Part shown: piece after piece, positions 1,065-16,162 of the stretch | How positions within the stretch are numbered: the stretch's first letter is position 1 | How the letters are laid out: the number at the start of each line of letters is the position of its first letter | Origin: Bdellovibrionota bacterium FG-2 | GTDB lineage: Bacteria; Bdellovibrionota; UBA1018 | Assembly (NCBI GenBank): GCA_051382305.1 | Contig: JBBCAV010000118.1 | Location: 1-16,184 of the forward strand | Direction: 5' to 3' | Length of the DNA stretch: 16,184 bases | Program-made: the position numbers and the translations under genes | Notes under the pieces: model-generated | The model's input: only the letters and a program-made list of their open reading frames with translations | What the model was told of the DNA's origin: nothing | Database searches by the model: none

Positions 1065-2168
1065 TTATTCACGAAGCCGCTGCCAAGCAGAAATCCCCCC
1101 ACTAAGGTGTGCGATAGTGCGAAGGCCCCGCTCCATCAAAATCTCCCCGGCCACCTCGCTTCGCGCACCACTATGACAATAGAGTATCACCCGTGCGCCA
1201 GATGTGAGCTCCGCAGACAACGCCTGGGATTGCCTCAATTGAGACAACGGAATATTCACCGCACCCTCAATATGCCCCGTCTGCCACTCCGCAGCCTCAC
1301 GAACATCAACAAGCAGTACACTACCATCGCGTGCGCCCATGATGCGAGCAAGATCACCCGCAGATAATTCTTCTAAACCTACGACACAGGCTTGGACCTT
1401 TAAATCAGCTAGTACAACCTCTTCCGGTCGGATGGCACATACGGGACACCCCATTACTTTTGGCACGCGAAACATAAAAGGCCCCATAGTTGCGCAATCC
1501 AATACCAATAAAGTGCCGATCAGGGGTTTTAGTGGACCCACATCCGCTCCCTGAATTGCAAGCTTGACCGCCTCCGCAGCTTGCATGCTTCCCACAATTC
1601 CCGCCACTGCCCCCAGAACTCCCGCCTCCGCGCAATTCATCACACGCGTTTCGGGAAGCGCGGGATAGAGACACCGGTAACAAGCGCCGTGCTTGGCCCA
1701 AAAAACAGAGACCTGACCCTCAAAACGTGAAATCGACCCGTACACGACAGGCAATCCCAAGCGAACCGCCGCATCGTTAATCAAGAACTTCGCCGCAAAG
1801 TTATCCGTCCCATCGATGATAATATCAAAGCGAGCGAAAATATCGAGCACGTTGCGCGCGCTCAAACAGCAAGGAAAAGTTTCAATACAAATCTCAGGAT
1901 TCAGTCCCACTAATCTCTTTTTTGCGGCTTCAACTTTAAGTTCTCCCACCTCACAGGTCTGAAACAAAATCTGCCGCTGAAGATTGGTCTCATCGACTCG
2001 ATCAAAATCAACCAAACCTAAAGTACCCACGCCCGCCGCCGCTAGATACAAACTCGCAGGCGACCCCAATCCTCCGACACCCACACAAAGAACGCGCGCT
2101 TTTTTCAGCCGCGCCTGTCCCTCGACACCTATTTCTGGCAGAACGGTCTGCCGTGCATATCGTTTCAT
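1065..2168 (-). CDS. moeB: Molybdopterin-synthase adenylyltransferase MoeB with C-terminal rhodanese domain (MoeZ/MOCS3-like)
   Basis: Motifs RYARQ, GVGGLGS, DFDRVDETNLQRQ, DGTDNF, CYRC and CPVC zinc pairs, and rhodanese DVRE..EW..GHIEGA with active loop CHSGARS. Start placed at ATG 2168, which overlaps the mobA stop (ATGA). Confidence 0.92.
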   Translation of the reverse strand: MKRYARQTVLPEIGVEGQARLKKARVLCVGVGGLGSPASLYLAAAGVGTLGLVDFDRVDETNLQRQILFQTCEVGELKVEAAKKRLVGLNPEICIETFPCCLSARNVLDIFARFDIIIDGTDNFAAKFLINDAAVRLGLPVVYGSISRFEGQVSVFWAKHGACYRCLYPALPETRVMNCAEAGVLGAVAGIVGSMQAAEAVKLAIQGADVGPLKPLIGTLLVLDCATMGPFMFRVPKVMGCPVCAIRPEEVVLADLKVQACVVGLEELSAGDLARIMGARDGSVLLVDVREAAEWQTGHIEGAVNIPLSQLRQSQALSAELTSGARVILYCHSGARSEVAGEILMERGLRTIAHLSGGISAWQRLRE

Positions 2169-2746
2169 TTTATTTTCGCCGCCCATTGTTCCGGGGTATT
2201 GAGATTTACGAATTTTGGCACTTCACTCGGTGCAAGCTCAAAATTTATGGTATTGATTCCTGCAAGCAAAACTCGTATCGAACGAGATCGTCGCTCCGCA
2301 TTTGCATTCACAACTTGGGTAATCGTATCCACAACCTCAACAGAACCTCGCAAGGCCAAAGGGAGTTCATAGTTCGAAAATTTAGCGGCATCGAACCCAC
2401 CCAATCGCTGCCACAGCTCACAAATATGTGCCGGCTCTAACAAAGGCATATCAACAGGTACAACAACCCATAAATTCTCGGGGCTTTTATTCAGCCGCGA
2501 GACTACCGAATGCAAACCACCCAGCGGTCCCAGTTCTGGCACCTCATCCGCAATACACTCGACGCCTTCAATATTTTCGGCAATCTTCCCGCTCACAATT
2601 ACACGGTCTGCGCCGCCGGCTTTGAGCAGAGCAGACATATGATCCACGAGCCTGACTCCACAATAAGACAAGAGCGCCTTGTCGCTACCCATCCGAGTAG
2701 ATCGGCCTCCAGCAAGGAGAATGCCGATAATTTGGCCTTCACCCAT
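2165..2746 (-). CDS. mobA: Molybdenum cofactor guanylyltransferase
   Basis: Motifs LLAGGRSTRMGSDKALL, GPLGGL, PVDMP and NLNTPE. Start placed at ATG 2746, overlapping the moaE stop; ATG 2761 is an alternative. Confidence 0.9.
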   Translation of the reverse strand: MGEGQIIGILLAGGRSTRMGSDKALLSYCGVRLVDHMSALLKAGGADRVIVSGKIAENIEGVECIADEVPELGPLGGLHSVVSRLNKSPENLWVVVPVDMPLLEPAHICELWQRLGGFDAAKFSNYELPLALRGSVEVVDTITQVVNANAERRSRSIRVLLAGINTINFELAPSEVPKFVNLNTPEQWAAKIK

Positions 2747-3188
2747 GCTGACACAACTCATGGCCCTCAAGCCATTCGCTGTCCCCATCTTTATAGTGCT
2801 CTTTCTTCCAAATCGGAGCCCTGACTTTGATTTGCTCAATCAAGTACCGAGAAGCCTGGTATGCCTCATCACGATGGGGTGAACCCACGGCAATGGCGAC
2901 ACTAATCTCGCCCACCGCGAGTCGTCCGACTCGGTGAATAAGTGCAATGCGTTGGGTTTTCCCCCACTTTTCCTGCGCCTCTCGAATCATCGCGACAAAC
3001 ACCCGCTCCGCTAGCAGCTTGTGCACATCGTAAGAAACAGCAACAACAGGTCGTCCAGCATTAAGATCCCTCACAACTCCATAAAAATGGAGCTGCGCCC
3101 CTTGTGCCGGATCCGCGATCAGCTCCCGCATCCGATCCAGAGAAATCGGCTCTTCAACCACGAGTGCTGTAATCCCTTGGAGAGCCAT
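2739..3188 (-). CDS. moaE: Molybdopterin synthase catalytic subunit
   Basis: Motifs GAQLHFYGVVRD, HRVGRLAVGE, SPHRDEAY and KVRAPIWKKE. ATG 3188 is preceded by GGAGGA. Confidence 0.93.
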   Translation of the reverse strand: MALQGITALVVEEPISLDRMRELIADPAQGAQLHFYGVVRDLNAGRPVVAVSYDVHKLLAERVFVAMIREAQEKWGKTQRIALIHRVGRLAVGEISVAIAVGSPHRDEAYQASRYLIEQIKVRAPIWKKEHYKDGDSEWLEGHELCQHG

Positions 3189-3192
3189 GACA

Positions 3193-3456
3193 TCATCCTC
3201 CACACACAGGGGGCAAAACTGAAACGATGCACTTGCCGCTACCCGACTGTTGCAGCAGATCGTAATCGCCTAAAATTCTCGTCTCATCCGCAATCGCCGA
3301 CTTTGCCACCAGATCGCCCGCATTAAGTTTCTCTGTAAGAATCTTTTTGAGATCAATCACGGTCGATTGAGCAGGTATCGTCAAGTTGAGCTGCTGCCCA
3401 TCCGCGAAACTTTTGAATGCGCCAAACAATTTCACTTGCACTTCAATTTGCGTCAT
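3193..3456 (-). CDS. moaD: Molybdopterin synthase sulfur carrier subunit
   Basis: 87 aa ubiquitin-like protein with VKLFG near the N-terminus and C-terminal LPPVCGG. It sits between moeA and moaE and overlaps the upstream stop. Confidence 0.9.
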   Translation of the reverse strand: MTQIEVQVKLFGAFKSFADGQQLNLTIPAQSTVIDLKKILTEKLNAGDLVAKSAIADETRILGDYDLLQQSGSGKCIVSVLPPVCGG

Positions 3457-5870
3457 ACACTAAACCCTCTTGCACGCATTGGCACAACATCGATCAACTC
3501 GCCAGCCGGTAATTCACTCAGTTCTTCGGGTAATATAGCCCAAGCATTGGACACGAGTAACGGACTCACCATAAACGACGCCTGTCCCGGGAGCACCCGC
3601 ACGCTAGCGCTATGGTGTTCCTTGAAATCAAGCCGTGCTTTAAAAAAACAACGAAGGCCCGCAGGCTTTCGCACCTTCTCGCAAAGCTGGGCTCGCAACG
3701 GCTGCTCCGGCGGCAATCCCGTAATCGCCCGCAGATACGGCTCCACAAAAAATCGCAACCCCACGACGGTGGCTACCGGGTTTCCAGGTAGGCCAAACAC
3801 GACAGGACTCTGTGCGCCCAACGTGGGTCCGGGAAGTTTTGCAAAAAGCATAGGTTTTCCTGGCCGAATAGCAGTTTTGTGAAAAACAACTTTTGCGCCT
3901 AAATCTCCCAGCGCCATCGCGATAAAATCATACTTACCCATGGAAACCGCCCCGGTCGTAATAATAACGTCAGGCGATTTTGCCATTTGTTTTTGCATCG
4001 TTTCAATAAACTCATGAGGCTCGTCGGCAAGCGTGCCGCAGAATTCGACTTCAACCCCCAGCGCCGTGAGCGCCGCCACCAAGAAGGGCGCGGTTGAGTT
4101 CCGAATTTGCCCCGTTGTAAGCTCTCGCCCTGTAGAAATCACGGCGACCCGTGGACGCCGACGCACCGGGATTTTGTCGATGCCCAGACTTGCAAGCGCC
4201 AGAATATGCTCAGATTGAAGCATCGCCCCAGCAAAAACAACGGGCGAACCTACGGCAAAATCCTCGCCTGCATCGCGGACATTCTCATGAGGCGCAATGG
4301 GCCGAGACAGCTCAATGGCCATTGCATTGCCCTGCGCATCGCGCTCAACATGAACATCTTCGATACGCACAACAGAATCGCAGCTTTGCGCGGCAGGCAT
4401 CGGTGCACCGGTCATAATTTCCCAAGCACAGCTCCGATCAACGGGGCTTGTTGTAATCGGAGCATCGCCTGCTGCGATCAAGCCCTTCACTAAAAGCCGT
4501 ACAGGATGCTCTGGACTTGCGGAAAATACGGCGCTGCTCATGACGGCAAACCCATCCATCGCGGAGTTATTAAAAGGGGGACTCATCTCCGTACTTTTTA
4601 GGGAGTGGGCACACACTCGGCCCCGAACATCGCTGAGCGTGATTTGCTCTTCAGGCAGCACCCCTTGCTCAACGGCTGCCTCTTGAATCAATTTTAACGC
4701 TTCATCATAACTACAGCTAATCATAAACTCTAACTCCTTTGCTCTTGGCCTAACCCTTGGCACCCCTCGGACGAACCGAGGCAGATCAAAAACTAAGCCG
4801 ATGCCGAGAATCCACAACATGTTCTGTGTAACCAATGCAGTCAGCACCATCGCAATCAGGCGGGGCCTTTCTTCCAAATTATCCCAAGTTTGCCTTGCCA
4901 ATTGCAGGTGAAACACTCCGGTTGCGGCTAAAAGCGCGGCCAACAATGGTGCCCAATACCAAAGTACCGTTCCAGCGCGCAGCCAAACTAGGACACTGAG
5001 TGCCAGCAAAGTGCCGCCCATCACTAGATTTGTTTTCCACGTTTTGGCGCCGCCCCGCACGTGAGCCGTCACACCACCCGAACCATGACAAAAAGGCATC
5101 CCACCCATAACTCCGACTAAGACATTACCCAGGCCAATCGAGAGGAGCAAACGTCTCAGGGTCACTCGTGCGGCGTTAGCCGGAAAATATCGTTGAGTGA
5201 CATCCCTGGTCGCCACGACAGAATTGGCGAGCGTAAGTACAATCTGTGGCATCACAAGTGCCAGAATAAAATCAGGGCGAGCCAGAGCCGTTGCAGAAGT
5301 TAAATGAGCCTCAACGCCCGAGAGAGATGGGGGCAGGGTGAGCATTTTATAAGCGCCAAAGAGCATTCCGCTGGTTGCCAAAAGTCCCATAAAAGGAACA
5401 GCCGTAGCCGCGTTTAATCCCAGAATTGCGCCCGTTAAAGCGAGCGCCACCCAAGGGGCGCCCCAAGCATTTGGCCCAGCCATTTTAGCGGCTTGAAAAA
5501 CAAGAATCACGCCCAAGCCGGCCTGAAGGCCTTGCACCAACGCACGCGGCACCCACGATGCAGCACGGTCCACATTTAAAAAACAAAGAAGGAGACAGAA
5601 AATACCGACAAACGCCCCCGCAAGCCGCACTTCAGCGTAGGAGGCCCCGACGGCGAGCGCGGCGAGCGCGATGGACTTTAGAGGTTGGACCGACATCGGC
5701 ACGCGAAAAAAAATCCCGGCAAAGACATACGCCAACCCTGTCGTTCCAAGAAGAAGCGCGCTCGAAAAACCCGCCCTCAGCGAGAGCGCCACTAAAATAG
5801 GAAAAAGAACGGCACTATCCGCAAACGCGCCGGTAACATCCCCAAGAAGATCCCCGAAAAACTTACGCAT
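3453..5870 (-). CDS. moeA: In-frame fusion: MOT1-family molybdate transporter (N-terminal ~360 aa) plus molybdopterin molybdotransferase MoeA (from Met383)
   Basis: The hydrophobic N-half carries MOT1 motifs GAFADSAVLFP, PMSVQPLKSIA and GMPFCHGSGGVTAH. The C-half carries MoeA motifs PPFNNSAMDGFAV, IMTGAPMP, VAVISTGREL, TTGAVSMGKYD, IRPGKP and FGLPGNPVA. No stop codon separates them. An internal AAGGAG (4734-4739) lies 9 nt before ATG 4724. Confidence 0.85.
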   Translation of the reverse strand: MRKFFGDLLGDVTGAFADSAVLFPILVALSLRAGFSSALLLGTTGLAYVFAGIFFRVPMSVQPLKSIALAALAVGASYAEVRLAGAFVGIFCLLLCFLNVDRAASWVPRALVQGLQAGLGVILVFQAAKMAGPNAWGAPWVALALTGAILGLNAATAVPFMGLLATSGMLFGAYKMLTLPPSLSGVEAHLTSATALARPDFILALVMPQIVLTLANSVVATRDVTQRYFPANAARVTLRRLLLSIGLGNVLVGVMGGMPFCHGSGGVTAHVRGGAKTWKTNLVMGGTLLALSVLVWLRAGTVLWYWAPLLAALLAATGVFHLQLARQTWDNLEERPRLIAMVLTALVTQNMLWILGIGLVFDLPRFVRGVPRVRPRAKELEFMISCSYDEALKLIQEAAVEQGVLPEEQITLSDVRGRVCAHSLKSTEMSPPFNNSAMDGFAVMSSAVFSASPEHPVRLLVKGLIAAGDAPITTSPVDRSCAWEIMTGAPMPAAQSCDSVVRIEDVHVERDAQGNAMAIELSRPIAPHENVRDAGEDFAVGSPVVFAGAMLQSEHILALASLGIDKIPVRRRPRVAVISTGRELTTGQIRNSTAPFLVAALTALGVEVEFCGTLADEPHEFIETMQKQMAKSPDVIITTGAVSMGKYDFIAMALGDLGAKVVFHKTAIRPGKPMLFAKLPGPTLGAQSPVVFGLPGNPVATVVGLRFFVEPYLRAITGLPPEQPLRAQLCEKVRKPAGLRCFFKARLDFKEHHSASVRVLPGQASFMVSPLLVSNAWAILPEELSELPAGELIDVVPMRARGFSV

Positions 5871-5891
5871 AAACTGCTTCCATAAACTACT

Positions 5892-6857
5892 TTAATGACT
5901 CCCGCCCCGCACAATATGAAGCGCATGAGGAATCAATTCATCCAAAGCTTCCAAGCTTTCCAAAACCGCCTTTGGACTCCCTGGGAGCAATAAGACGAGA
6001 GTCCGATCCACCAGTCCTGCCTCACAGCGACTCAACCAAGAACGTTCCGTGAAACGCGAACCATACAGTCGCACGCGCTCTGAAAAACCAGGAATTCGCT
6101 TCGTCCACAAGGACTCGACCGCTTCGGGCGTCACATCTCTTGGCGCAAGGCCCGTCCCGCCCGTCACCACCACCACGCTCAATCCCTCAGTACCCCAAGA
6201 CTTAATCACGTCTTGAATCGCGGTTTTTTCATCAGCGACGATTTTCTGCGCAACATCTGTAGCCCCTCTGACTTTCAAAAACTCTACTGCCGCAGGCCCC
6301 GAGCTATCTTTTGCCTCACCTCGAAAACAACGATCACTCACGGTAAGGACACCCGTACGACATCCTTTGAGTGTCGGTTCTATATCGCCTTCCGACCGCA
6401 ACTGCGGCTTATGATGGGGATGCACCCAAAGTCCTGATTTCCCCCCCTCTTTAATTTCGAGATGAATTTCAGAAATAGTTAACGCCGGATCCACGCCCTT
6501 GGTCAAATCGTAAACACTCAGAAGCGCCGCACTCACGCCAGCAAGCGCTTCCATTTCAACACCCGTTTTTGCAAAAGCGCGCGCCTCGCACGACACGACG
6601 ACTTCACTCCCCACCACCGCGCACGTCACCCAAACCGAATCCAGCCCGAGCGGATGACAAAGCGGGAGCGTTTCCGAGACTCGCTTTGCGCCTTGGATTC
6701 CGGCGACCTCAGCTAACGCAAGCACGTCCCCCTTGGGCATTTCCTTCGCGGCAATTCGAGTCGCCGTTTCAGGGGCCATCCTAATACGTCCACACGCGAC
6801 CGCGCGACGCTTGGTCGGCGTTTTATCACCCACGTCGATCATTCTGAATTCGCTCAT
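5892..6857 (-). CDS. moaC: Bifunctional MoaC (cPMP synthase) / MogA-MoaB (MPT adenylyltransferase)
   Basis: MoaC motifs MIDVGDK, KGDVL, LPLCHPL, TGVEMEAL and GGKSG, then MogA/MoaB motifs LTVSDR, DSSGP, TGGTGLAPRDVTPEA and LPGSPKAV. Start placed at ATG 6857, just after the moaA stop and preceded by GAGG. Confidence 0.93.
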   Translation of the reverse strand: MSEFRMIDVGDKTPTKRRAVACGRIRMAPETATRIAAKEMPKGDVLALAEVAGIQGAKRVSETLPLCHPLGLDSVWVTCAVVGSEVVVSCEARAFAKTGVEMEALAGVSAALLSVYDLTKGVDPALTISEIHLEIKEGGKSGLWVHPHHKPQLRSEGDIEPTLKGCRTGVLTVSDRCFRGEAKDSSGPAAVEFLKVRGATDVAQKIVADEKTAIQDVIKSWGTEGLSVVVVTGGTGLAPRDVTPEAVESLWTKRIPGFSERVRLYGSRFTERSWLSRCEAGLVDRTLVLLLPGSPKAVLESLEALDELIPHALHIVRGGSH

Positions 6858-6861
6858 ACCT

Positions 6862-7881: not shown

Positions 7882-7885
7882 AACT

Positions 7886-8026
7886 GTCTCCTTTCCAAGT
7901 AATAGGAGGCAAGATCGTTTCCGTTATCTTGCCCCGGTGGGCATTATGCCCACGGCCAAAATCCCGTATTTTCCAACAGAGCTCACAACTACGACGGAAA
8001 ACTTAGACATTTTGGCTCGGAGTTAT
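7886..8026 (-). ncRNA. Molybdenum cofactor (Moco) riboswitch
   Basis: The minus strand reads AACTCCGAGCCAAAATGTCTAAG...TACGGGATTTTGGCCGTGGGCATAATGCCCACCGGGGCAAGATAACGGAAACGATCTTGCCTCCTATTACTTGGAAAGGAGA. This follows the moaA-leader architecture: P1 CTCC/GGAG, P2 GCCAAAAT/ATTTTGGC, P3 GTGGGCA/TGCCCAC, P4 GGCAAGAT/ATCTTGCC with GGAAA, and a TTGGAAAGGAG tail containing the RBS. It lies directly upstream of moaA. Confidence 0.92.
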
Positions 8027-8034
8027 TTGTGAAG

Positions 8035-9645: not shown

Positions 9646-9657
9646 CCATTCTTAAAT

Positions 9658-9688
9658 TCCCCAGGGCCAAACGCTAGGCCCAGGGGAT
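9658..9688 (-). other. Intergenic stem-loop between the PstS-like gene and the MCP gene
   Basis: Minus strand TCCCCTGGGCC-TAGCGTTT-GGCCCTGGGA. It has no clear U tract, so it may be an mRNA stabiliser or a weak terminator. Confidence 0.35.
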
Positions 9689-9700
9689 CAAATACTCTAA

Positions 9701-10480
9701 CTATTTAGCAGGGACAAACTTCTTACCAACGATCGCCTGACCTTCTGGCGAAAGAATAAAGTCAAAAAATTTCTTCGCATCGCCGGTAGGCGCCTCTTTA
9801 GATACGAGAACTAAAGGGCGTGAAAGAAGATATTCACCGGATTTGACATTATCCGAAGTGGGATCAACACCATTAACACCGATCATCTTGCCACCCACGC
9901 TCTTAAAAGACGATGATGCGTAAGTGATTACGCTCGAGTCCTTAGCTGCTTCACCAACGCAATCATGAGGCTTGTCGACTTGTCTTGACGGTCCATATGC
10001 CTCCTTATCCATCGCCATTTCCTTAAATTCTTTGACCGTGGCGCGATCCCCAGTTTGAAGCTCTGTCACAACCGTGATGGGCCCCGCTTTTCCGCCGACA
10101 TCCTTCCAGTTCGCAATTTTACCTGTAAAAATCTTTTTAATTTGATCTTTTGTAAGCGCTTTAACCGGATTTGAAGCATGCACAAACACAGCAATCGCAT
10201 CGTAACCAATATTTTGATAATAAGGCTTAGCCGCTTTTTCTTCTGTCTTTAACGCCCTACTCAACCCTCCGATATTCGCTGCCCCCGCCATCACTGCCTT
10301 AATTCCCTCTCCCGAGCCTTTTAATCCGATGCTATCAAATTTAATCTTTTCCTTTGCCTCAAAAGCCGTACTTGCCTCTGGCATAACATTCTCACCAATT
10401 GTCGATGAGCCTTCATAAGTGAGTCCTGCCCACGCCATCGTTGTACACAAAAAGACTGCCAAAACTAACACCTGCTTCAT
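9701..10480 (-). CDS. PstS-like (PBP2) periplasmic oxyanion-binding protein, orphan
   Basis: Sec signal MKQVLVLAVFLCTTMAWA, and motifs GSSTI, GSGEGI, SRALK, GYDAIAVFVHASNPV, IFTGKIANWKDVGG, Y.LSRPL and FFDFILSPEGQ. ATG 10480 is preceded by AAGGAGG. No pstCAB in the window. Confidence 0.88.
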   Translation of the reverse strand: MKQVLVLAVFLCTTMAWAGLTYEGSSTIGENVMPEASTAFEAKEKIKFDSIGLKGSGEGIKAVMAGAANIGGLSRALKTEEKAAKPYYQNIGYDAIAVFVHASNPVKALTKDQIKKIFTGKIANWKDVGGKAGPITVVTELQTGDRATVKEFKEMAMDKEAYGPSRQVDKPHDCVGEAAKDSSVITYASSSFKSVGGKMIGVNGVDPTSDNVKSGEYLLSRPLVLVSKEAPTGDAKKFFDFILSPEGQAIVGKKFVPAK

Positions 10481-10537
10481 AACACGTCCTCCTTGGTTAA
10501 ATATAGCGAACACATTTCAAAAAAACCTATACTAATA

Positions 10538-10789
10538 TTACGTCTGCGAAACTTCTAAAGTTTTCTCCACTTGCGGAGCATTAATCTGCTGAACCGACAG
10601 GACGGTTTCGGCGCGCGCTTCGCGCGTATCATCACTCATAAGAGACGAGATACCTTTGCCGTCTACCGCTTCCTTAAAAGCCTTAAATCCCTTACCGAGT
10701 CCCGCTCCAAGCTCCGGCAACCGCCTGGAACCAAAAAGCAACACCACGATCCCCAAAACCAATAAATGCCCTGCACTTAAACCAAACAT
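10538..10789 (-). CDS. tatA: Twin-arginine translocase TatA/TatE subunit
   Basis: MFGLSAGHLLVLGIVVLLFGSRRLPELGAGLGKGFKAFK matches the TatA pattern. ATG 10789 is preceded by AAGGAGG. Confidence 0.9.
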   Translation of the reverse strand: MFGLSAGHLLVLGIVVLLFGSRRLPELGAGLGKGFKAFKEAVDGKGISSLMSDDTREARAETVLSVQQINAPQVEKTLEVSQT

Positions 10790-10810
10790 AAAACCTCCTT
10801 CAAAATTAGA

Positions 10811-10851
10811 ACTGCCCCAGCCCATTAGTACAAATAGCAGGCCAGGGCAGT
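10811..10851 (-). other. Intergenic stem-loop downstream of the catalytic-subunit gene
   Basis: Minus strand ACTGCCCTGGCCT...GGGCTGGGGCAGT forms about 13 bp including G:U pairs, with no poly-U tail. Confidence 0.45.
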
Positions 10852-10875
10852 CGGTAGAGGTAGAAGCCTACATGA

Positions 10876-13425
10876 TTAGACCTTTACCAACTTTACGCAG
10901 GTCTCTTTATGAAGAGCCTGCCCAGAAAGTGGATCAGATTTGGTGGGCCGCAAGGTTGCATCAGAGGTTCCTCTGCCCATCGCATTTTTCCCAAGAGCCG
11001 TGTGACCAAAGCCATGCTGCAACCCCACAACTTCAGGGTGAATACGTTTCGACACCTTCACCTTGGCTTTCACCTTCCCATATTTGGATTCAACCCAAAC
11101 TTCGTCCCCCGATTTAATCTTCATACTCGCTGCGGCCTTGGGATGCATGATCAGTGGGTTATCTGCCTTAATTTCTAAAAGCCAGGGATTGTTCTGAGTC
11201 CTGCTATGAGTGTGGCTCGCTTCCTTCCAGTTGATCGCATAAAAGGGATACTCAGCAGACGGCATCCAATCACGAGAGTTAAACACGGGCAGCGCATCCA
11301 CAGGACGTCCGAGAGCATCTTTTTTATCAGCTAGGCCCTTAGCAAAAAACTCAACTTTACCACTCTTTGTGAAAAAGCCACGCACAGGTTTTCCTGCAAT
11401 GAGAGTTCCAATTCGCTTGCCGCCTTTGTCTTTGGGCTTATCATAAATCCCGGTCCCATCGACCTTACGATCACCGTCAAACCAAGCTGATTTCAGCTTA
11501 TCATCAGCAAGTACGCTCTTGTACTTCTCATACTTCGTGCCTTTCTTATCAATCCATACCGCTCCCGGTAGTTTTTTGAGTTCCGCCAACGTCATTGCGG
11601 GTCCGCCACTCTTACATTCATTTGAGAGATAATCTTCGTACCAGGTTTTGAGATCATCAATTGTCTTGCCCGAAAGCGGTCCAACATTGAAAAATAGTTT
11701 TCCCTCGTGATCTTTAAGCTTCAGTCTTCGCCCCAAAGCCGCCACCACCTCATATTCAGCCAGTTGACCAAAGAGGGGCTTTACTACGGGCTGTCTGAGA
11801 GCCATGCACCCCCAGGTCACCCAGTGAGTGTTGAGATCGTATCGTTCCAGGTACGTCGTCCCAGGAAGCACATAATCCGCCAGCTTGGCCGTCTCGCTCA
11901 TCATAGTATCGATCACAACGAAAGTTTCCAACTTCGCAATTGCCTTGGCAACGGTTCCCGAGCCAGGCACCGACATCATTGGGTTTTGAAAAACGCACAT
12001 CATCATTTTGGGCTTATACGGGCCCTTATCGTCAGCGAGATTTTGAAACATCTGGGTATAGACGCCAGAAGAATGTCCTAGTGGATACTTCTTCGCTTCG
12101 TCAAAAGTCGGCAGTTTTACCGACTTCGCCGCCTTCTCATCGGGATCACAATGTCCGTGCTTGTTCCCCTTTTTATCCGGCATAATCAACGTCCCAGGCC
12201 GATCGTATCCACCCACGAGCGCCGCAAGCATCGCAATCGCGCGCCCTCCTTGCACACCATTACTGTGCTGTCCGGGCCCACTCCAAACATCAACGCAAGG
12301 CGCTTTTGCTTTCGCAAGTTCCTTAGCTAGACGTTCAATGGTTTTTGCAGGAATCGTCGTGATTTTCTCCGCCCACTGAGGGGTCTTGTCTTTAACGTAT
12401 TCGGCATACTCCTTGAAGCCCACCGTCCATTGCTCCACAAACTCTTTATGGTAAAGCTTATCGCGAACAATCACATGCCCCATCGCAAGAGCTAAGGCGC
12501 CATCTGTGGCAGGACGTACTGAAACCCACTCATGAGCTTTCACGGCTGTATCCGACATATACGGATCCACGACAACCAAACGCGCGCCTTTTTCCAGCGC
12601 ACGAGTCATCATGCGTGGCAAATGCACCCATTTGATCGCACTAGTGGGATTCCAGCCAAAGAGCATGATAAAGTCCGATTGAAGCATATCTGCAAGCGGA
12701 CGGTCATCGCCCATCACAGCCTTATACGATGCCTTGCGAGCGACGTCACAAAGGTTCGAGTGCATAACGTAGTTTGGCGTTCCATATAATGTACAAAAGT
12801 CACCCTGAACATGAGTAAATGAATGATCCTCACTCATCCAAATGAGTTTTTGGGCTTCATCGGCATCCCGCAACGCACGCATCTTCTCTGCGATCTCATC
12901 AAGCGCACGCTCCCAAGTGATCTCCTCCCATTTTGGATCCGCTCCCGGCGTTTTATCGGGGTTGGTCCGCTTCAAAGGCTTCTTGACTCGCTCAGGGTCA
13001 TAAAGTTGCATAATCCCTGCGTTTCCTTTGGGACAAAGCGCTCCGCCCTCTTTACAGCCATATGCTTCTGTATATCCGTCAAAAAAATCAGTTGAGATAT
13101 TGGAGTAGTTATTGGGGTTCCAGTGATTAGGTTCGATCTTTTCAACGACGCCATCAACGACATGGACCAGGATACCGGATTGCCCTCCACACATATTACA
13201 GCACGAAGGAATCCATTCGCCCGCCTCACGGCCCCAACGTTTTTTCCCTTCGGCATTAGCGATAATTTGTTGATCGCGAATTACCGGGGTTCCTGTTTTC
13301 TTAGCACCCTTTTTTCCTGTTTTCGCATGAGCCTTAAGCCCAAGCCCCACGACCCCTACTGCAGCCGCAGTTCCTGCGTCCCTAATAAATTTACGACGCC
13401 CCATTTTTTTATCAAAAATATACAT
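10876..13425 (-). CDS. Tat-exported Mo/W-bisPGD oxidoreductase catalytic subunit (DMSO reductase family, Psr/Phs/Srr/Arr/Anr-like)
   Basis: Tat signal GRRKFI..AHA; FS0 region CCNMCGGQS...LCPKG; YDPERVKKPLKRTNP; GTPN..HSNLC (Cys226, predicted Mo ligand); VVVDP; RPATDGALALAM; ADYVLPGTTYLER; HTHSRTQNN; C-terminal dinucleotide-binding domain. RBS AGAGGT. Confidence 0.93.
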   Translation of the reverse strand: MYIFDKKMGRRKFIRDAGTAAAVGVVGLGLKAHAKTGKKGAKKTGTPVIRDQQIIANAEGKKRWGREAGEWIPSCCNMCGGQSGILVHVVDGVVEKIEPNHWNPNNYSNISTDFFDGYTEAYGCKEGGALCPKGNAGIMQLYDPERVKKPLKRTNPDKTPGADPKWEEITWERALDEIAEKMRALRDADEAQKLIWMSEDHSFTHVQGDFCTLYGTPNYVMHSNLCDVARKASYKAVMGDDRPLADMLQSDFIMLFGWNPTSAIKWVHLPRMMTRALEKGARLVVVDPYMSDTAVKAHEWVSVRPATDGALALAMGHVIVRDKLYHKEFVEQWTVGFKEYAEYVKDKTPQWAEKITTIPAKTIERLAKELAKAKAPCVDVWSGPGQHSNGVQGGRAIAMLAALVGGYDRPGTLIMPDKKGNKHGHCDPDEKAAKSVKLPTFDEAKKYPLGHSSGVYTQMFQNLADDKGPYKPKMMMCVFQNPMMSVPGSGTVAKAIAKLETFVVIDTMMSETAKLADYVLPGTTYLERYDLNTHWVTWGCMALRQPVVKPLFGQLAEYEVVAALGRRLKLKDHEGKLFFNVGPLSGKTIDDLKTWYEDYLSNECKSGGPAMTLAELKKLPGAVWIDKKGTKYEKYKSVLADDKLKSAWFDGDRKVDGTGIYDKPKDKGGKRIGTLIAGKPVRGFFTKSGKVEFFAKGLADKKDALGRPVDALPVFNSRDWMPSAEYPFYAINWKEASHTHSRTQNNPWLLEIKADNPLIMHPKAAASMKIKSGDEVWVESKYGKVKAKVKVSKRIHPEVVGLQHGFGHTALGKNAMGRGTSDATLRPTKSDPLSGQALHKETCVKLVKV

Positions 13426-13440
13426 AAATAACCTCTTTTC

Positions 13441-14316
13441 TTAGACCAAGTAATACACATTCGGCAGTGTCTGAAGCTCTTCTTTTAAGCGGATCGCCTT
13501 GTGCTTTTTCAGCAACTGAGAAACCTCACTCTTGGGATCATTAAAGTCCCCAAAGAAAATGGCGTGCCCCGTACACGTTTTTGAACAGGCAGGCCATCGT
13601 CCTGCCGATTTGTCGTAACGTCCGTCTTGATCTTGAAGATGCACACAAAATGTGCATTTTCGAACTTTGCCTGTCGTCATTTTATCGCCTTCGCGCGGCC
13701 TAAACTGATTATATTCAGGCGAAGGAACCTGTGAATAGGGGGTTTTCCCTTCTACAGCTGGATAATTGTTTCCATCATCAATTGTACGCGCTCCGTAAGG
13801 ACAAGCTTTGACACAATCTCCAGCCCCTTGACAAAGATCATAATCCACAACGACAACGCCATCACTTGCCCGCTTAAAGGTCGCATCAACTGGGCAAACG
13901 GGAACGCACGGAGGGTTCTCACAATGAAAACATGGCCGAGTCATGAAAATGGGCTTATCAACCACACTCTTTTTGTCCGGATTTTCCAAGAGGACGTTAT
14001 TAAAGACTCCGGGAGGTGTTTTATTTTCCGCCTTACAAGCAACCACACAAGCCTTGCAGCCCACGCATCGTTTCGTATCCACTACCATTCCAAAACGATA
14101 TTTTCGCTTAGCCTTAGTCTCAGCATTCACGGCCGGGGCAGCGCCAGCAATTGAGGCCACTAATCCTCCCCCCAATGCGAGCGCTAATGCTCCTGCCCCC
14201 GTCTTTACGATCTGTGAAACGAGGTCTCTTCGACTCATCTCTCCATCAAGCGATGAATCTTTGTCCTTATTTTTTTCTTCATTGTTATCGATATTTACCT
14301 TACCTGAATCAGTCAT
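13441..14316 (-). CDS. Four-cluster Fe-S electron-transfer subunit (NrfC/PsrB/DmsB-like) with its own Tat signal
   Basis: SRRDLV followed by a hydrophobic h-region; Cys groups CVGCKACVVAC, CFHCENPPCVPVCP, CQGAGDCVKACP and CTFC..PACSKTC; C-terminal PNVYYL. ATG 14316 is preceded by GGGAGG. Confidence 0.92.
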   Translation of the reverse strand: MTDSGKVNIDNNEEKNKDKDSSLDGEMSRRDLVSQIVKTGAGALALALGGGLVASIAGAAPAVNAETKAKRKYRFGMVVDTKRCVGCKACVVACKAENKTPPGVFNNVLLENPDKKSVVDKPIFMTRPCFHCENPPCVPVCPVDATFKRASDGVVVVDYDLCQGAGDCVKACPYGARTIDDGNNYPAVEGKTPYSQVPSPEYNQFRPREGDKMTTGKVRKCTFCVHLQDQDGRYDKSAGRWPACSKTCTGHAIFFGDFNDPKSEVSQLLKKHKAIRLKEELQTLPNVYYLV

Positions 14317-14318
14317 GA

Positions 14319-14389
14319 GATCCTCCCAAAATTTCGGGAGATCCAATCAAACAGCCCCAAAATCCCCAGCCATTTGAATGGATCTCCCG
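14319..14389 (-). promoter_or_regulatory. Mutually exclusive RNA hairpins overlapping the RBS of the Fe-S subunit gene
   Basis: Long stem CGGGAGATCCA/TGGATCTCCCG plus TCAAATGGC/GCTGTTTGA (14335-14389). The alternative stem GATCTCCCGAA/TTTGGGAGGATC (14319-14343) pairs the Shine-Dalgarno. Confidence 0.5.
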
Positions 14390-14402
14390 CTAAAATCTAT
14401 GT

Positions 14403-15419
14403 CTAGAATGTCCAAGAAAACGTAATTCGTGGAATCACGTCAGCATCAGTACCTTCAGGGTAAGTCACCATTTCAACGTTCGGCATAAAATGGATGTTTT
14501 TAGCAGCCTCATAATCCACACCCGCAATATAGAGCATGGGCTTCGCCGTCTTGCTTTGATGCAAATAGGTCGAATCTCCGAGGCAAGCCTTATCAAGAGC
14601 ATCAACCCGCGCAAAAGCAGAAAGTTCATCCATGACTTTGGCAACAGCATGGAGTGACCAAACGTTATAAGAATTAAAAAGATTTTTTGAGGCAGCGACT
14701 TTTCGATGAGCAAACATCGCACCCACGCGGAAAGCATCCACTTTATAGCCTGCGAAAACGTGATTCAGAGTCGAGTGAGTATTGGATTCATAATCACCAT
14801 ATACCTCAAGGAGAACCTCTTTAATCGGAGCTGACGTAAGCGAGAGGTAAACTCTCTTGCCCTTGTTGATTTCCTGAGTCGTGCTACTGCCATTGGCGGC
14901 CATAACATGATAGCCTAGGAGACCATCACTATAACTCCCCTTGATAGCGACCCCTAAATCTCTCGAAGGGGCTAATCCCCACAAATCTTCTGGCGACTTC
15001 TCAACAGCTCTTAGACCCCAGTGATTTTCGACGACATCAAGAGTAGGCGTCCCCGCGAGGCCCATGAACACTTTACGCGAATCCCATTTATACTGAAGAT
15101 ACAGATCTTTTAGAAAAGGGGAAATCGTGGAACCCGTCTTATCGGTAAAGTCTTTTCCATTCATTTCAAAACGCAAACGTGAAGACCAATTTTCTTCAAA
15201 GCCATAGTCATAAGTAAAATAAGCTCTTCTCAACCAAAAACCATTTTGCCCCTGATAACCCTTCTCACTAGCAAGCGAAGTCGTTGTGTCATGATCCTTT
15301 GCAAACCAGTACGCATCCCCAAACACTAAACCAGAAAACTTCCCCTCGCCCGCAAACGCCGAACCAGAAACCAGCACAATAAAGGCCAGTAATCCTAAAA
15401 CGTGCTTATAATTTTTCAC
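14403..15419 (-). CDS. Outer-membrane beta-barrel porin, OprO/OprP (anion-selective)-like
   Basis: Signal peptide ending AFA, FWLRRAYF motif, alternating beta-strand pattern, and C-terminal BAM signal RITFSWTF. GTG start after GGAGA. Confidence 0.75.
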   Translation of the reverse strand: MKNYKHVLGLLAFIVLVSGSAFAGEGKFSGLVFGDAYWFAKDHDTTTSLASEKGYQGQNGFWLRRAYFTYDYGFEENWSSRLRFEMNGKDFTDKTGSTISPFLKDLYLQYKWDSRKVFMGLAGTPTLDVVENHWGLRAVEKSPEDLWGLAPSRDLGVAIKGSYSDGLLGYHVMAANGSSTTQEINKGKRVYLSLTSAPIKEVLLEVYGDYESNTHSTLNHVFAGYKVDAFRVGAMFAHRKVAASKNLFNSYNVWSLHAVAKVMDELSAFARVDALDKACLGDSTYLHQSKTAKPMLYIAGVDYEAAKNIHFMPNVEMVTYPEGTDADVIPRITFSWTF

Positions 15420-15514
15420 TCATTTTCTCCTTTTACAGTTATTTGATCAGAAGAACACAAAGGCTCTCCTGCCCCCGTTGACTCAAACACTTCGAATAGG
15501 TGTGCAAAAAGGAT

Positions 15515-15556
15515 TATGACGAAAACGACTTCTTTTACTAGTCCGTAAAACTACGT
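15515..15556 (-). promoter_or_regulatory. Candidate promoter / regulator-binding region for the porin-oxidoreductase operon
   Basis: Inverted repeat TTTTAC-N6-GTAAAA (15533-15550) and a CATAAT -10-like hexamer on the minus strand, with only a poor -35. Confidence 0.3.
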
Positions 15557-16162
15557 ATTTTTGGAATGAATAAAAAGCGATGACGACATCACATAACGAG
15601 TAAGACCTGCGGTATTATGAATTCCTAGTTTCTGCATCACCCGCTCCCGATGCGTCGTCACTGTCCGCACACTGATGCACAACTCACAGGCAATCGCCTT
15701 GCTGCTTAAACCGCGAGCAACTAATGTCAAAACCTGCAATTCTCTCGGAGTCAGTTCGCGAGGGGCATCCAAAGAAAGCGGAATCCTTTTTCGAGGGCAA
15801 ACACCGCGAATCGCGACAACCAACTCCTCTGGAGAACTTTCCGCCTTCTGGAAAAACCCACTCACACCCTCACGACGGAGCTGTCGAATCAAATGAAGAT
15901 CATCATGCATCGTCAAAATAATGACTTTGGTTTTTGAAAAATGACTGAGGATCTTTTTTGTCGAATCCACCCCATTCATCCGAGGCATACTAATATCCAT
16001 CAAAACAACATTAGGTGTCAAATCGCGCACCTGCTCAAAGGCGGTTATCCCGTCCGAAGCTTCGCCTACGATTTCAATATCTAGGTAGTCCTTTAATGCA
16101 GCTTTAAGCCCCTCGCGGACCAATCGATGGTCATCAACTATAAGGAGGCGAATCCTCGCCAT
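15551..16162 (-). CDS. NarL/FixJ (LuxR-HTH) family DNA-binding response regulator
   Basis: REC domain (LIVDDH, VVLMDISMPRMNG, ILTMH, FFQK) and LuxR HTH (LTPRELQVLTLVARGLSSKAIA..ISVRTVTTHRERVMQKL). RBS GAGGGG. Confidence 0.93.
   Translation of the reverse strand: MARIRLLIVDDHRLVREGLKAALKDYLDIEIVGEASDGITAFEQVRDLTPNVVLMDISMPRMNGVDSTKKILSHFSKTKVIILTMHDDLHLIRQLRREGVSGFFQKAESSPEELVVAIRGVCPRKRIPLSLDAPRELTPRELQVLTLVARGLSSKAIACELCISVRTVTTHRERVMQKLGIHNTAGLTRYVMSSSLFIHSKNT

What the first reader, a model, noticed from the sequence alone, without database searches (positions are those of the whole stretch)
1065..16162. Self-contained oxyanion sense-import-taxis-convert island around an unassigned molybdoenzyme
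Seen: 14 co-directional genes covering a regulator, anion-type porin, Fe-S subunit, Mo-bisPGD subunit, TatA, PstS-like binder, MCP, and a riboswitch-led Moco/MGD pathway with its own molybdate transporter. Established: arr/arx/aio and antimonate-reductase (anr) clusters pair such enzymes with a periplasmic binding protein and a two-component system. Inference: this is a portable module for respiring, oxidising or detoxifying an oxyanion (Se, As, Sb, Te or S oxyanions are candidates), with the added ability to swim towards it. I do not recognise this combination as a characterised system.
Basis: partly seen in the sequence, partly recalled or inferred. Interest (0 to 1): 0.85.

Follow-up and report, generated by a model that had tools for sequence, protein, structure and literature searches.

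The report
Orphan periplasmic molybdoenzyme island with chemoreceptor
An uncultured predatory-type bacterium carries a gene cluster joining an untested family of periplasmic molybdenum enzymes to an outer-membrane channel, a binding-protein-dependent chemotaxis receptor and a spare, riboswitch-controlled cofactor pathway; the parts are real, but what the enzyme acts on is still unknown.

Summary
In detail: 14 co-directional genes and a Moco riboswitch lie at the stated coordinates.

The catalytic subunit passes no curated family model. It belongs to a tight, widespread, uncharacterised clade that is sister to the Psr/Phs group and separate from the Arr-like and Ttr-like groups.

Most relatives have the order B-C(NrfD)-A. 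This copy lacks the anchor, and the anchor-less B subunits have lost one cluster cysteine: 0 of 9 keep it, against 45 of 45 anchored ones.

Porins recur beside the family. The PstS-like and MCP genes were found in 0 of 84 family loci. Yet they form a conserved chemosensory pair of their own: 8 of 8 loci examined have a signal transducer next to the binder. In two other genomes the pair sits beside other molybdoenzymes plus MoaA.

The Moco operon is a second copy, and only this copy has the riboswitch. The substrate is unresolved; arsenic is a weak lead.

The island is accessory: the enzyme is in 3 of 401 genomes of the phylum. No mobility genes are visible.

This scan met the same enzyme family on three other windows.

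Verdict: a new variant of a known kind, of moderate interest.

The parts
15551..16162 (-). NarL/LuxR-type response regulator. Its sensor kinase is not on the contig.
   Evidence: Response_reg 87 bits and GerE 67.5 bits. No NCBIfam equivalog is passed. Homologous regulators, 28-39% identical, lie upstream of B in 9 of 84 family loci.
14403..15419 (-). Outer-membrane porin of an unassigned family. Anion selectivity is not shown.
   Evidence: Porin_O_P 18.9 bits, below the 20.9 cut-off. Orthologues lie upstream of B in L004 (52%), L006 (36%), L037, L050, L066 and L093. The model has pLDDT 77.8 and a 16-strand porin fold. A paralogue, 49.5% identical, lies on C53.
13441..14346 (-). Tat-exported iron-sulfur subunit B. 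It has lost the second Cys of the third cluster motif (CQGAGDCVKAC).
   Evidence: Fer4_11. DsrO model 171 bits against cut-off 200, TtrB 162 against 416. SRRDLV signal. Cys loss shown.
10876..13425 (-). Tat-exported Mo-bisPGD catalytic subunit A. Cys226 is the likely Mo ligand. Member of an uncharacterised clade.
   Evidence: Pfam Molybdopterin, Molydop_binding and Molybdop_Fe4S4. Best NCBIfam model PhsA, 372 bits against cut-off 694. PDB PsrA 2vpw 240 bits, ArrA 6cz7 212 bits. Tree.
10538..10825 (-). Extra TatA-family protein. It is the third in the genome.
   Evidence: TatA_B_E 45.6 bits. G000 has 3 TatA-family genes; the same-genus genome G263 has 2.
9701..10513 (-). PstS-like periplasmic binding protein of a subfamily that accompanies chemoreceptors. 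No transporter genes lie nearby.
   Evidence: PBP_like_2 108 bits. TIGR02136 154 bits, below the 206.6 cut-off. 310 relatives at E<=1e-20. A transducer gene is adjacent in 8 of 8 loci examined.
8035..9645 (-). Methyl-accepting chemotaxis protein with a divergent periplasmic sensor of about 145 residues, likely a four-helix bundle.
   Evidence: MCPsignal 127 bits. The sensor region finds only itself in a word-indexed search. It is 37-40% identical to the two MCPs beside the G173 PstS-like gene and 38% to the C53 paralogue over the full length.
7872..8034 (-). Moco riboswitch that gates the cofactor operon.
   Evidence: RF01055, 74.9 bits against a gathering score of 36, full model 1-135. AAAGGAG and the TTG start of MoaA lie at its 3' end.
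6862..7881 (-). MoaA (GTP 3',8-cyclase), second copy in the genome.
   Evidence: TIGR02666 321 bits, over the 284 cut-off. A second moaA lies on C153.
5892..6911 (-). Bifunctional MoaC/MoaB.
   Evidence: NF002947 339.5 bits, over the 285 cut-off.
3453..5870 (-). MOT1-type molybdate transporter domain fused to MoeA.
   Evidence: MFS_MOT1 104.7 bits plus MoeA_N, MoCF_biosynth and MoeA_C. In other genomes of the phylum the two halves are adjacent separate genes. Only the window gives a match over residues 1-805, 1 of 301 genomes.
3193..3456 (-). MoaD-like sulfur carrier.
   Evidence: Weak TIGR01682 match, E 4e-4. C-terminal Gly-Gly. 40% identical to the C153 copy.
2739..3203 (-). MoaE.
   Evidence: Pfam MoaE 111 bits.
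2165..2839 (-). MobA-like guanylyltransferase, which makes the bis-MGD form of the cofactor.
   Evidence: NTP_transf_3 96 bits. TIGR02665 65 bits, below its cut-off.
1065..2186 (-). MoeB-type adenylyltransferase with a rhodanese domain.
   Evidence: ThiF 243.5 bits and Rhodanese 68 bits.
500..844 (-). Flank of the cluster: a remnant of a histidine kinase, holding the ATPase domain only.
   Evidence: HATPase_c 100 bits with no HisKA domain. Non-coding sequence lies upstream. 68% identical to the C-terminus of a kinase on C224.

Best explanation
The window is a composite accessory locus with three working units.

1. Enzyme unit. A porin, a Tat-exported Fe-S subunit B and a Tat-exported Cys-ligated Mo-bisPGD subunit A form a soluble periplasmic two-subunit oxidoreductase. 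An extra TatA serves its export. The enzyme belongs to a large untested clade that is sister to the polysulfide/thiosulfate reductases. It most likely converts a small inorganic oxyanion that enters through the porin. This copy has lost the quinol-oxidising NrfD anchor of its relatives and has rebuilt the Fe-S cluster that faced the anchor. It must therefore exchange electrons with a soluble or separately encoded partner.

2. Sensor unit. The PstS-like binder loads a tetrahedral oxyanion and docks on the four-helix-bundle MCP, as PstS does on CtpL. This steers swimming.

3. Cofactor unit. A second Moco/bis-MGD operon with a fused molybdate importer is switched by a Moco riboswitch and supplies cofactor on demand.

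Shown: the gene identities, the clade, the anchor loss with the cysteine loss, the conserved binder-MCP pairing, and the duplication of the Moco operon.

Inferred: the substrate class, co-regulation of the units, and the link between the taxis ligand and the enzyme substrate. An arsenic oxyanion is my leading single candidate, at about 0.3.
For: Identities.

Clade:
- No NCBIfam equivalog is passed: PhsA 372 bits against cut-off 694, ArrA 233 against 1600, TtrA 111 against 1750.
- In the 50%-identity library the family collapses to one representative at 1373 bits. Sisters score about 500-760 bits. Scores then drop to 344 bits or less.
- None of the 8 family and sister representatives reaches E 1e-130 to any model (63 of the 131 full-length representatives were scanned).
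- In the tree of 81 rows, family plus sisters have SH-aLRT support 100. They sit next to the Psr/Phs-like assemblage (96) and apart from the Arr-like clade (100).

Anchor:
- B lies about 2 kb before A in most of 84 loci, and NrfD sits between them wherever this was checked.
- Among 54 dereplicated loci with a scorable B, 0 of 9 with B next to A keep CxxCxxCxxxC, against 45 of 45 with room for C. The window shows the same loss.

Porins: at least 11 of 67 dereplicated loci have one.

Oxyanion sensing in relatives: a PhnD-like binder plus a HisKA_3 kinase plus a NarL-type regulator lie upstream in L040, L092 and L098.

Binder-MCP pair:
- The window.
- G173, whose binder is 61% identical and has two MCPs beside it.
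- Five Nitrospirota genomes with an adjacent MCP. Pfam calls it 4HB-type in three of them, and four of the pairs lie inside che operons.
- G371, where the binder is coupled to a kinase instead.

Complex model: score 0.48 against 0.01 for the best of 3 controls, verdict 'weak support'.
- The mark was reached by 116 of 157 solved complexes and 2 of 215 mismatched pairs.
- At 0.60 or under it was reached by only 18 of those 157 and by both mismatches that passed.
- The runs agree in at least 95% of contacts, and the partner's pLDDT is at least 90.

Link to Mo enzymes: in G173 the pair abuts MoaA plus a TtrA-like/TtrB-like pair plus a porin. In G646 it follows MoaA and a fragmented sister-clade A.

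Cofactor unit: a second operon in the same gene order lies on C153, 33-62% identical and without a riboswitch.

Arsenic lead: LMWPc genes in L031 and L093, ArsR plus ArsP in L043, and an ArsB/CitMHS-like gene in L091. His222, Cys226 and Lys231 align with ArrA residues 189, 193 and 198 (positions from PMC13685797, passages read).
Against: - The window holds no ars gene. Arsenic-related neighbours occur in only 3-4 of 67 loci. TauE (L073) and DsrE (L064) point instead to sulfur.
- The ArrA substrate motif RGRY (163-166) aligns with S198-E199-D200-H201, and Tyr210 aligns with Arg242.
- By sequence the closest characterised enzymes are sulfur-compound reductases.
- The PstS-like, MCP and TatA genes were found in 0 of 84 family loci, including the closest relative, which is 82% identical (L004 = G353).
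- 4 of 5 Nitrospirota binder-MCP pairs lie in che operons with no Mo enzyme within about 8 kb. The pair is therefore not bound to Mo enzymes.
- No NapC/NirT-type cytochrome was found in the 85%-complete genome, so the electron path is unknown.
- There are no expression data.
- No named SrrA, AnrA, SrdA, ArxA or Wolinella PsrA sequence could be placed in the tree.
Confidence: 0.55

Rival explanations
1. The enzyme is a sulfur-compound reductase (polysulfide, thiosulfate or tetrathionate) of a divergent Psr/Phs type. The JGI annotation says so, and nothing about arsenic or other metalloids is involved.
For: - The best model is PhsA and the best solved structure is PsrA.
- The clade is sister to the Psr/Phs-like assemblage in the tree.
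- Sources name relatives 'thiosulfate reductase/polysulfide reductase chain A'.
- TauE and DsrE are neighbours in L073 and L064.
Against: - The PhsA score is about half the cut-off, and true PhsA representatives (P0172, P0179) sit in another clade.
- The clade has a long stem (0.43) and its own invariant residues, such as the SEDHSF loop and the CCNMCGG cluster motif.
- The gene order is B-C-A, not A-B-C.
- The sensors beside relatives are of the phosphate/phosphite/phosphonate binder class.
Confidence: 0.2
2. The PstS-like/MCP pair is a plain phosphate-taxis module of the CtpL-PstS type. It merely lies next to the enzyme genes here and has no functional tie to the enzyme's substrate.
For: - The pair occurs in 0 of 84 family loci.
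- In 4 of 5 Nitrospirota genomes it sits in che operons without Mo enzymes.
- The nearest solved relatives are phosphate-binding proteins.
- A PstS-dependent chemoreceptor for phosphate is established (PMC4926252, abstract read).
Against: - In 3 of 8 loci (G000, G173, G646; two phyla) the pair directly abuts MoaA and a periplasmic Mo enzyme, and the three enzymes belong to three different lineages.
- The binder falls below the PstS family cut-off. Its subfamily replaces the canonical SGT(R) loop with an invariant R-A-T.
Confidence: 0.3
3. The binder senses molybdate or tungstate. The cell swims towards the metal it needs for the cofactor, which would explain why the pair always touches MoaA rather than the enzyme genes.
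For: - In all three Mo-linked loci the pair's immediate neighbour is MoaA or the Moco operon.
- The window operon also carries a molybdate importer and a Moco riboswitch.
Against: - No sequence tie to known molybdate or tungstate binders was seen. The PDB hits are all phosphate binders or unnamed ABC binders.
- Most pairs lie in che operons far from Moco genes.
Confidence: 0.1
4. The anchor-less enzyme works in the oxidising direction, for example on arsenite or another reduced oxyanion. It would pass electrons to a periplasmic cytochrome c rather than serve as a terminal reductase.
For: - The loss of the quinol-side subunit goes with a three-Cys cluster motif, likely a higher-potential cluster. 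That reading of the potential is my inference.
- Cytochrome c genes follow A in L026, L081 and L092.
- Many hosts named by the sources are aerobes or nitrate reducers.
Against: - No cytochrome c gene lies in the window.
- Crp/Fnr-type regulators sit beside L026, L027 and L093, and an anaerobic ribonucleotide reductase beside L091. These fit anaerobic respiration.
Confidence: 0.2

Closest known systems
Polysulfide/thiosulfate reductases PsrABC (Thermus thermophilus, PDB 2vpw) and PhsABC
   Same: - Cys-ligated Mo-bisPGD subunit with an N-terminal Fe-S domain and a four-cluster B subunit.
- Relatives carry an NrfD-type anchor.
- These are the best sequence matches.
   Different: - Separate clade: half the PhsA cut-off score and a long stem in the tree.
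- The family's order is B-C-A.
- This copy has no anchor.
- B has its own Tat signal.
- The cluster motif is CCNMCGG.
Respiratory arsenate reductase ArrAB (Shewanella sp. ANA-3, PDB 6cz7)
   Same: - Soluble periplasmic AB enzyme without a dedicated anchor.
- The equivalents of His189, Cys193 and Lys198 are conserved.
- Relatives have a binder-kinase-regulator sensor upstream.
   Different: - The RGRY motif is replaced by SEDH (PMC13685797).
- The ArrA model scores 233 bits against a 1600 cut-off.
- The Arr-like clade is separate in the tree.
- No CymA-type cytochrome was found in the genome.
aio arsenic islands of Agrobacterium tumefaciens GW4, Herminiimonas arsenicoxydans and Rhizobium sp. 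NT-26 (aioXSR, aioBA, pst1/pho1, mcp)
   Same: A molybdoenzyme for an oxyanion sits beside a two-component regulator, a PstS gene and an MCP that mediates taxis to the substrate (PMC7533571, passages read; PMC5335332, listing and abstract).
   Different: - That enzyme is AioAB (Rieske subunit, Nap-like lineage), and no such genes are here.
- There the MCP binds arsenite directly and PstS belongs to a full transporter.
- Here the binder stands alone with the MCP.
CtpL-PstS phosphate chemoreception in Pseudomonas aeruginosa
   Same: A PstS-family binder signals to a chemoreceptor by docking on it (PMC4926252, abstract read).
   Different: - There PstS is also the transporter's binder and is not encoded next to ctpL (recalled, not checked).
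- Here a distinct short subfamily is encoded next to its MCP in 7 loci and next to a kinase in 1.
Tetrathionate reductase TtrBCA / selenate reductase SrdBCA lineage
   Same: B-C-A gene order (recalled for ttr and srd), a Cys ligand, and a B subunit with a Tat signal. The TtrB model is the second-best match for B.
   Different: - The TtrA model scores 111 bits against a 1750 cut-off.
- The Ttr-like enzymes of G173, L041 and L052 form a distant clade.

Membership tests
PhsA/PsrA (thiosulfate/polysulfide reductase) | Score over the curated equivalog cut-off (NF012032, 694 bits) | tested here: not met
   372.4 bits. True PhsA representatives score 998 and 1058 bits.
PhsA/PsrA (thiosulfate/polysulfide reductase) | Falls inside the clade that holds true PhsA | tested here: not met
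   Family plus sisters form their own clade (SH-aLRT 100), sister to the Psr/Phs-like assemblage. No named Wolinella PsrA or SrrA sequence was available.
PhsA/PsrA (thiosulfate/polysulfide reductase) | Cys ligand to Mo | tested here: met
   Cys226 aligns with the ligand Cys region of 2vpw and 6cz7 and is invariant in 21 of 21 sequences.
ArrA (respiratory arsenate reductase) | Score over the curated cut-off (NF041714, 1600 bits) | tested here: not met
   232.6 bits.
ArrA (respiratory arsenate reductase) | RGRY substrate motif at residues 163-166 (PMC13685797) | tested here: not met
   It aligns with S198-E199-D200-H201. Those residues are invariant in the family.
TtrA (tetrathionate reductase) | Score over the curated cut-off (NF011567, 1750 bits) | tested here: not met
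   111.4 bits.
Three-subunit complex iron-sulfur molybdoenzyme (A, B, NrfD-type C) | Membrane anchor C encoded with A and B | tested here: not met
   No NrfD gene in the window. The only NrfD genes of the genome lie on C38 and C205. Relatives do have one.
Moco riboswitch (RF01055) | Score over Rfam's gathering threshold, upstream of a Moco gene | tested here: met
   74.9 bits against 36, directly before moaA.
PstS family phosphate-binding proteins (TIGR02136) | Score over the curated cut-off (206.6 bits) | tested here: not met
   154.4 bits. GSST, SR and YD motifs are kept, but the SGT(R) loop is replaced.
Binding-protein-dependent chemoreceptor (CtpL-PstS type) | The binder docks on the receptor's periplasmic domain | tested here: inconclusive
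   Complex model score 0.48 against 0.01 for the best control, verdict 'weak support'. Conserved adjacency in 7 loci. No binding measurement exists.
aio-type arsenic island | AioA with a Rieske subunit AioB | tested here: not met
   No Rieske domain or Aio-type subunit among the 16 ORFs scanned.

The most novel reading that the evidence does not exclude
The clade is a third, overlooked lineage of metalloid-oxyanion (arsenic or antimony) respiratory enzymes that is widespread in groundwater and soil bacteria. In this bacterium it is coupled to a dedicated PstS-like co-receptor and MCP that recognise the enzyme's substrate or product. That would give energy taxis towards a toxic oxyanion through an indirect, binding-protein-based sensor.
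Probability: 0.2. Interest if true: 0.8.

Novelty: new variant of a known kind. Interest (0 to 1): 0.55.

Why it matters
The enzyme clade is very widespread in uncultured soil and groundwater bacteria. The word-indexed search found 1152 relatives, and the best 120 are 68-84% identical although their sources assign them to many phyla. It is routinely annotated as thiosulfate/polysulfide reductase, yet it passes no curated test for that name. If it acts on arsenic, antimony or selenium oxyanions, metagenome-based budgets for those elements and for sulfur are mislabelled.

Two observations can be tested directly:
- Anchor loss goes with loss of one cluster cysteine in every case (0 of 9 against 45 of 45). 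This is a natural experiment in how these enzymes re-wire their electron path.
- The PstS-like subfamily that always sits next to a chemoreceptor or kinase is a candidate for a broad class of indirect oxyanion sensors.

Tried and rejected
- Named reference sequences for SrrA, AnrA, SrdA, ArxA and Wolinella PsrA could not be obtained through the tools.
- The tree left out representatives shorter than about 650 residues and all of P0202-P0274.
- Plasmids: 330 records match, none above 30% identity, and most are phsA.
- ESM Atlas: A gave only generic molybdopterin clusters. The MOT1-MoeA fusion gave no usable hit.
- The MCP sensor domain found only itself in the word-indexed search.
- A PhnD-like sensor binder like that of L098 was not found in the window's own genome, which is 85% complete.
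- Sequencing runs: one DNA holder, probably the source sample, and no RNA holder listed.
- NaoABC, the new antimonite oxidase (PMC11521347), was considered and rejected. It is Nap-like with a Rieske subunit.
- Literature: two searches for a description of this clade gave nothing specific. Text searches inside PMC10100899 and PMC7331816 found no matching uncharacterised group. Supplements were not read.
- The promoter/terminator scan was at chance level: 13 promoter-like sites against 13.5 expected.
- GC content differs between the two halves. The enzyme/sensor half is 47.2% (5th percentile of the genome's 8-kb windows) and the Moco half 52.6% (98.6th), against 49.8% for the genome. This is too mild to prove foreign origin.

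Full report
**1. What is there**

The window is one whole contig (C118) of a 4.34-Mb, 85%-complete genome. Source names of close homologues fit that (Bdellovibrionales, Oligoflexia).

Fourteen genes lie head to tail on the minus strand, with small gaps or overlaps. Pfam and NCBIfam identify them as:
- a NarL/LuxR-type response regulator;
- a beta-barrel porin;
- a four-cluster ferredoxin B with its own twin-arginine signal (SRRDLV);
- a Mo-bisPGD subunit A with a twin-arginine signal (GRRKFI);
- a TatA-family protein;
- a PstS-like binder;
- an MCP;
- MoaA, MoaC/MoaB, a MOT1-MoeA fusion, MoaD (ending in GG), MoaE, MobA and MoeB-rhodanese.

A full-length Moco riboswitch (74.9 bits, gathering score 36) starts one base after the MCP stop codon and covers the MoaA ribosome-binding site. 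Any separate promoter for the Moco genes would therefore have to lie inside the MCP gene. The consensus promoter scan was at chance level.

Downstream of MoeB lies a kinase remnant with only the ATPase domain.

**2. The enzyme**

*Scores.* Subunit A passes no curated equivalog: PhsA 372 bits against cut-off 694, ArrA 233 against 1600, TtrA 111 against 1750. The nearest solved structures are PsrA (2vpw, 240 bits) and ArrA (6cz7, 212 bits).

*Spread.* The word-indexed search found 1152 relatives among the 8000 candidates scored. The best 120 are 68-84% identical over the full length. Their sources assign them to Lentisphaerae, Planctomycetes, NC10, Armatimonadetes, Latescibacteria, Nitrospirae, Rokubacteria, Gemmatimonadetes and others. 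Where JGI names them, the name is 'thiosulfate/polysulfide reductase chain A'.

*Distinctness.* In the 50%-identity library the family collapses to one representative (1373 bits). A few full-length sisters at 44-48% identity score about 500-760 bits. Scores then fall to 344 bits or less. None of the 8 family and sister representatives reaches E 1e-130 to any NCBIfam model, and only P0172 and P0179 are true PhsA (63 of the 131 full-length representatives were scanned).

*Tree.* I built an IQ-TREE quick tree of 81 rows.
- Family plus sisters form one clade (SH-aLRT 100, stem 0.43).
- That clade sits beside the Psr/Phs-like assemblage (96).
- It is apart from an Arr-like clade (100) and from the Ttr-like outgroup.
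- I could not add named SrrA, AnrA, SrdA, ArxA or Wolinella PsrA, so this test is incomplete.

*Active site.* Cys226 aligns with the Mo-ligand cysteine region of PsrA and ArrA. His222 and Lys231 match ArrA positions 189 and 198. The ArrA motif RGRY (163-166) aligns with the family-invariant S198-E199-D200-H201, and Tyr210 aligns with Arg242 (ArrA positions from PMC13685797, passages read). The first Fe-S motif is the invariant CCNMCGG with a long insert before the last cysteine. That this departs from the usual CxxCxxxC is from my memory.

**3. Context of the family**

I examined 84 loci (4 from species genomes, 80 from metagenomes) with the window's proteins and dereplicated them to 67.

*Anchor.* B was found in 70 loci, mostly about 2 kb before A. 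The gene in between is NrfD wherever I checked. The usual order is therefore B-C-A. The window and its nearest relatives (L004, L019, L020, L006/L021) have B directly before A.

*Cysteine loss.* Among 54 dereplicated loci with a scorable B, 0 of 9 anchor-less loci keep the full CxxCxxCxxxC of the third cluster motif. All 45 of 45 loci with room for C keep it. The window reads CQGAGDCVKAC. The replacing residue differs among the anchor-less loci (Y, V, L, A, S, I, T), and they come from several subclades at 45-83% identity. They are kin, so the counts overstate independence.

*Recurrent neighbours* (one search scanned 118 of the 139 ORFs listed):
- porins in at least 11 of 67 loci, of at least three families;
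- a PhnD-like binder plus HisKA_3 kinase plus NarL regulator in L040, L092 and L098, the binders passing only the general phosphate/phosphite/phosphonate subfamily model;
- TorD-like chaperones in 5 loci;
- TatC in L005, L006, L080 and L088;
- Moco genes and MOT1 in several loci;
- CMD/AhpD-like proteins in 4 loci;
- FmdE in 2 loci.

*Substrate hints.* Arsenic-type neighbours are few: LMWPc in L031 and L093, ArsR plus ArsP in L043, and an ArsB/CitMHS-like gene in L091. Sulfur-type neighbours are TauE in L073 and DsrE in L064. I read this as a weak lead to arsenic, not as evidence.

**4. The binder and the MCP**

No PstS-like, MCP or TatA homologue was found in any of the 84 family loci.

The pair is nevertheless a conserved unit of its own.
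- The binder has 310 relatives at E<=1e-20 with their own invariant positions.
- It keeps the GSST, SR and YD anion-binding motifs of PstS-type proteins but replaces the SGT(R) loop.
- It falls below the PstS family cut-off.

In the phylum, 25 of 401 genomes match at E<=1e-20, but only G173 (61% identity) and G371 (37% identity, 194 bits) stand out. The loci I examined show the following:
- In G173 the binder lies between MoaA and two MCPs of the same subfamily. Next to them are a TtrA-like enzyme (457 bits against cut-off 1750), a TtrB-like subunit and a Porin_4 porin.
- In G371 the binder is translationally coupled to a HAMP histidine kinase.
- In Nitrospirota, 6 of 301 genomes carry the subfamily. 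I examined five; G637 sits on a 2.9-kb contig and was not examined.
- All five Nitrospirota loci have an MCP directly downstream. Pfam calls it 4HB-type in L154, L156 and L159 and HAMP-bearing in L158. L155 was seen by tblastn only.
- Three of those loci lie inside CheY-CheA-CheW-binder-MCP-HEAT-CheR-CheB operons, as the Pfam scan of L154 and L158 shows. L155 matches them in gene sizes and tblastn hits only. A fourth has CheW beside it.
- In G646 the pair follows MoaA and a fragmented sister-clade A (40-46% identity). That locus also has a B fused to a TorD-like domain.

In sum, the binder sits next to a transducer in 8 of 8 loci and next to MoaA plus a periplasmic Mo enzyme in 3 of 8. The three enzymes belong to three different lineages.

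A complex model of the MCP periplasmic domain with the binder scored 0.48 against 0.01 for the best of 3 controls, verdict 'weak support'.
- The mark was reached by 116 of 157 solved complexes and 2 of 215 mismatched pairs.
- At 0.60 or under it was reached by only 18 of the 157 and by both passing mismatches.
- The runs agree in at least 95% of contacts, and the partner's pLDDT is at least 90.

The same genome has a parallel module on C53: an MCP paralogue (38% identity over the full length), a stand-alone sCache protein, a porin paralogue (49.5% identity) and che genes.

**5. The cofactor unit**

- The genome has a second Moco operon in the same gene order on C153, 33-62% identical and without a riboswitch.
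- The same-genus genome G263 has one moaA.
- MOT1 and MoeA are adjacent separate genes in many genomes of the phylum. A single 805-residue match occurs only in the window, 1 of 301 genomes.
- The TatA is a third copy. G263 has two.

**6. Is it an island?**

- A occurs in 3 of 401 sampled genomes of the phylum and was not found in the 98%-complete genome of the same genus.
- The two halves of the cluster differ mildly in GC content.
- A kinase remnant flanks the cluster.
- The contig shows no mobility gene, and no plasmid relative above 30% identity was found.
- The cluster is accessory and patchy in distribution, but portability is not shown.

**7. Comparison with known systems**

- As a machine, the enzyme resembles ArrAB of Shewanella, a soluble periplasmic AB pair. 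It fails the Arr membership tests.
- By descent it is nearest to Psr/Phs. It fails that test too.
- The combination of enzyme, regulator, PstS and MCP has a published parallel in aio arsenic islands (PMC7533571, passages read; PMC5335332, abstract). Binder-dependent phosphate sensing is established for CtpL-PstS (PMC4926252, abstract).
- This scan met the same enzyme family on three other windows. My checks agree with those notes on the anchor loss and the altered cluster. I find the arsenic link weak.

**8. Verdict**

The cluster is a new variant of a known kind: an anchor-less member of an uncharacterised molybdoenzyme clade, joined here, and so far only here, to a conserved binder-dependent chemoreceptor pair and a riboswitch-gated spare cofactor operon. 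The substrate and the electron path remain open.

Noticed in passing
G000 contig C53 (locus L139:8637-11806): A parallel sensory module in the same genome: an MCP paralogue (38% identity), a stand-alone periplasmic sCache protein (165 aa), a porin paralogue (49.5% identity), then CheY-like, CheC/CheX and hybrid kinase genes.
   Followed up: partly
L121 (G173:C6), about 8389-17959: Porin_4 porin, TtrB-like subunit, TtrA-like enzyme of 1084 aa (no anchor gene seen) and MoaA, next to the PstS-like orthologue (61% identity) and two MCPs. The architecture matches the window, with a catalytic subunit from another lineage.
   Followed up: partly
L159 (G646:C6), about 3626-13601: A sister-clade A gene read in three frames (either broken or long-read indel errors), a B subunit fused to a TorD-like domain (Fer4_11 plus Nitrate_red_del, 375 aa), FmdE, a LysR-type HTH protein, MoaA, a MoaC fragment, then the PstS-like gene and a 4HB MCP.
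   Followed up: partly
L097:4514-5185: Directly after A, one protein joins a TatA-like N-terminal segment to a CMD/AhpD-like domain. Free CMD genes sit beside the family in L037, L095 and L049.
   Followed up: no
window 3453-5870: The MOT1 molybdate transporter is fused to MoeA. In other genomes of the phylum these are adjacent separate genes. The fusion was seen in 1 of 301 genomes, and the ESM Atlas gave no usable hit for it.
   Followed up: partly
window 13189-13203 (A residues 75-79): The first Fe-S motif of A reads CCNMCGG and is invariant in 21 of 21 family members. A long insert precedes the last cysteine. That this departs from the usual CxxCxxxC is recalled, not tested.
   Followed up: no
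window 500-844 and 1-500: A truncated histidine kinase (ATPase domain only, 68% identical to a kinase on C224), and about 500 bases at the contig end without a confident gene. A 40-aa ORF runs at 3-125 on the plus strand.
   Followed up: partly
L041:12742-18073 and L052:659-5244: In two metagenome loci the family's B-C-A set lies next to a second B-C-A set of the Ttr-like lineage (catalytic subunits of 1052 and 1079 aa).
   Followed up: no
G000 contigs C38 and C205: Two further B-like ferredoxin plus NrfD pairs lie on short contigs. Apart from the window, the only other MopB-type enzyme found in the genome is a 915-aa protein on C392.
   Followed up: no
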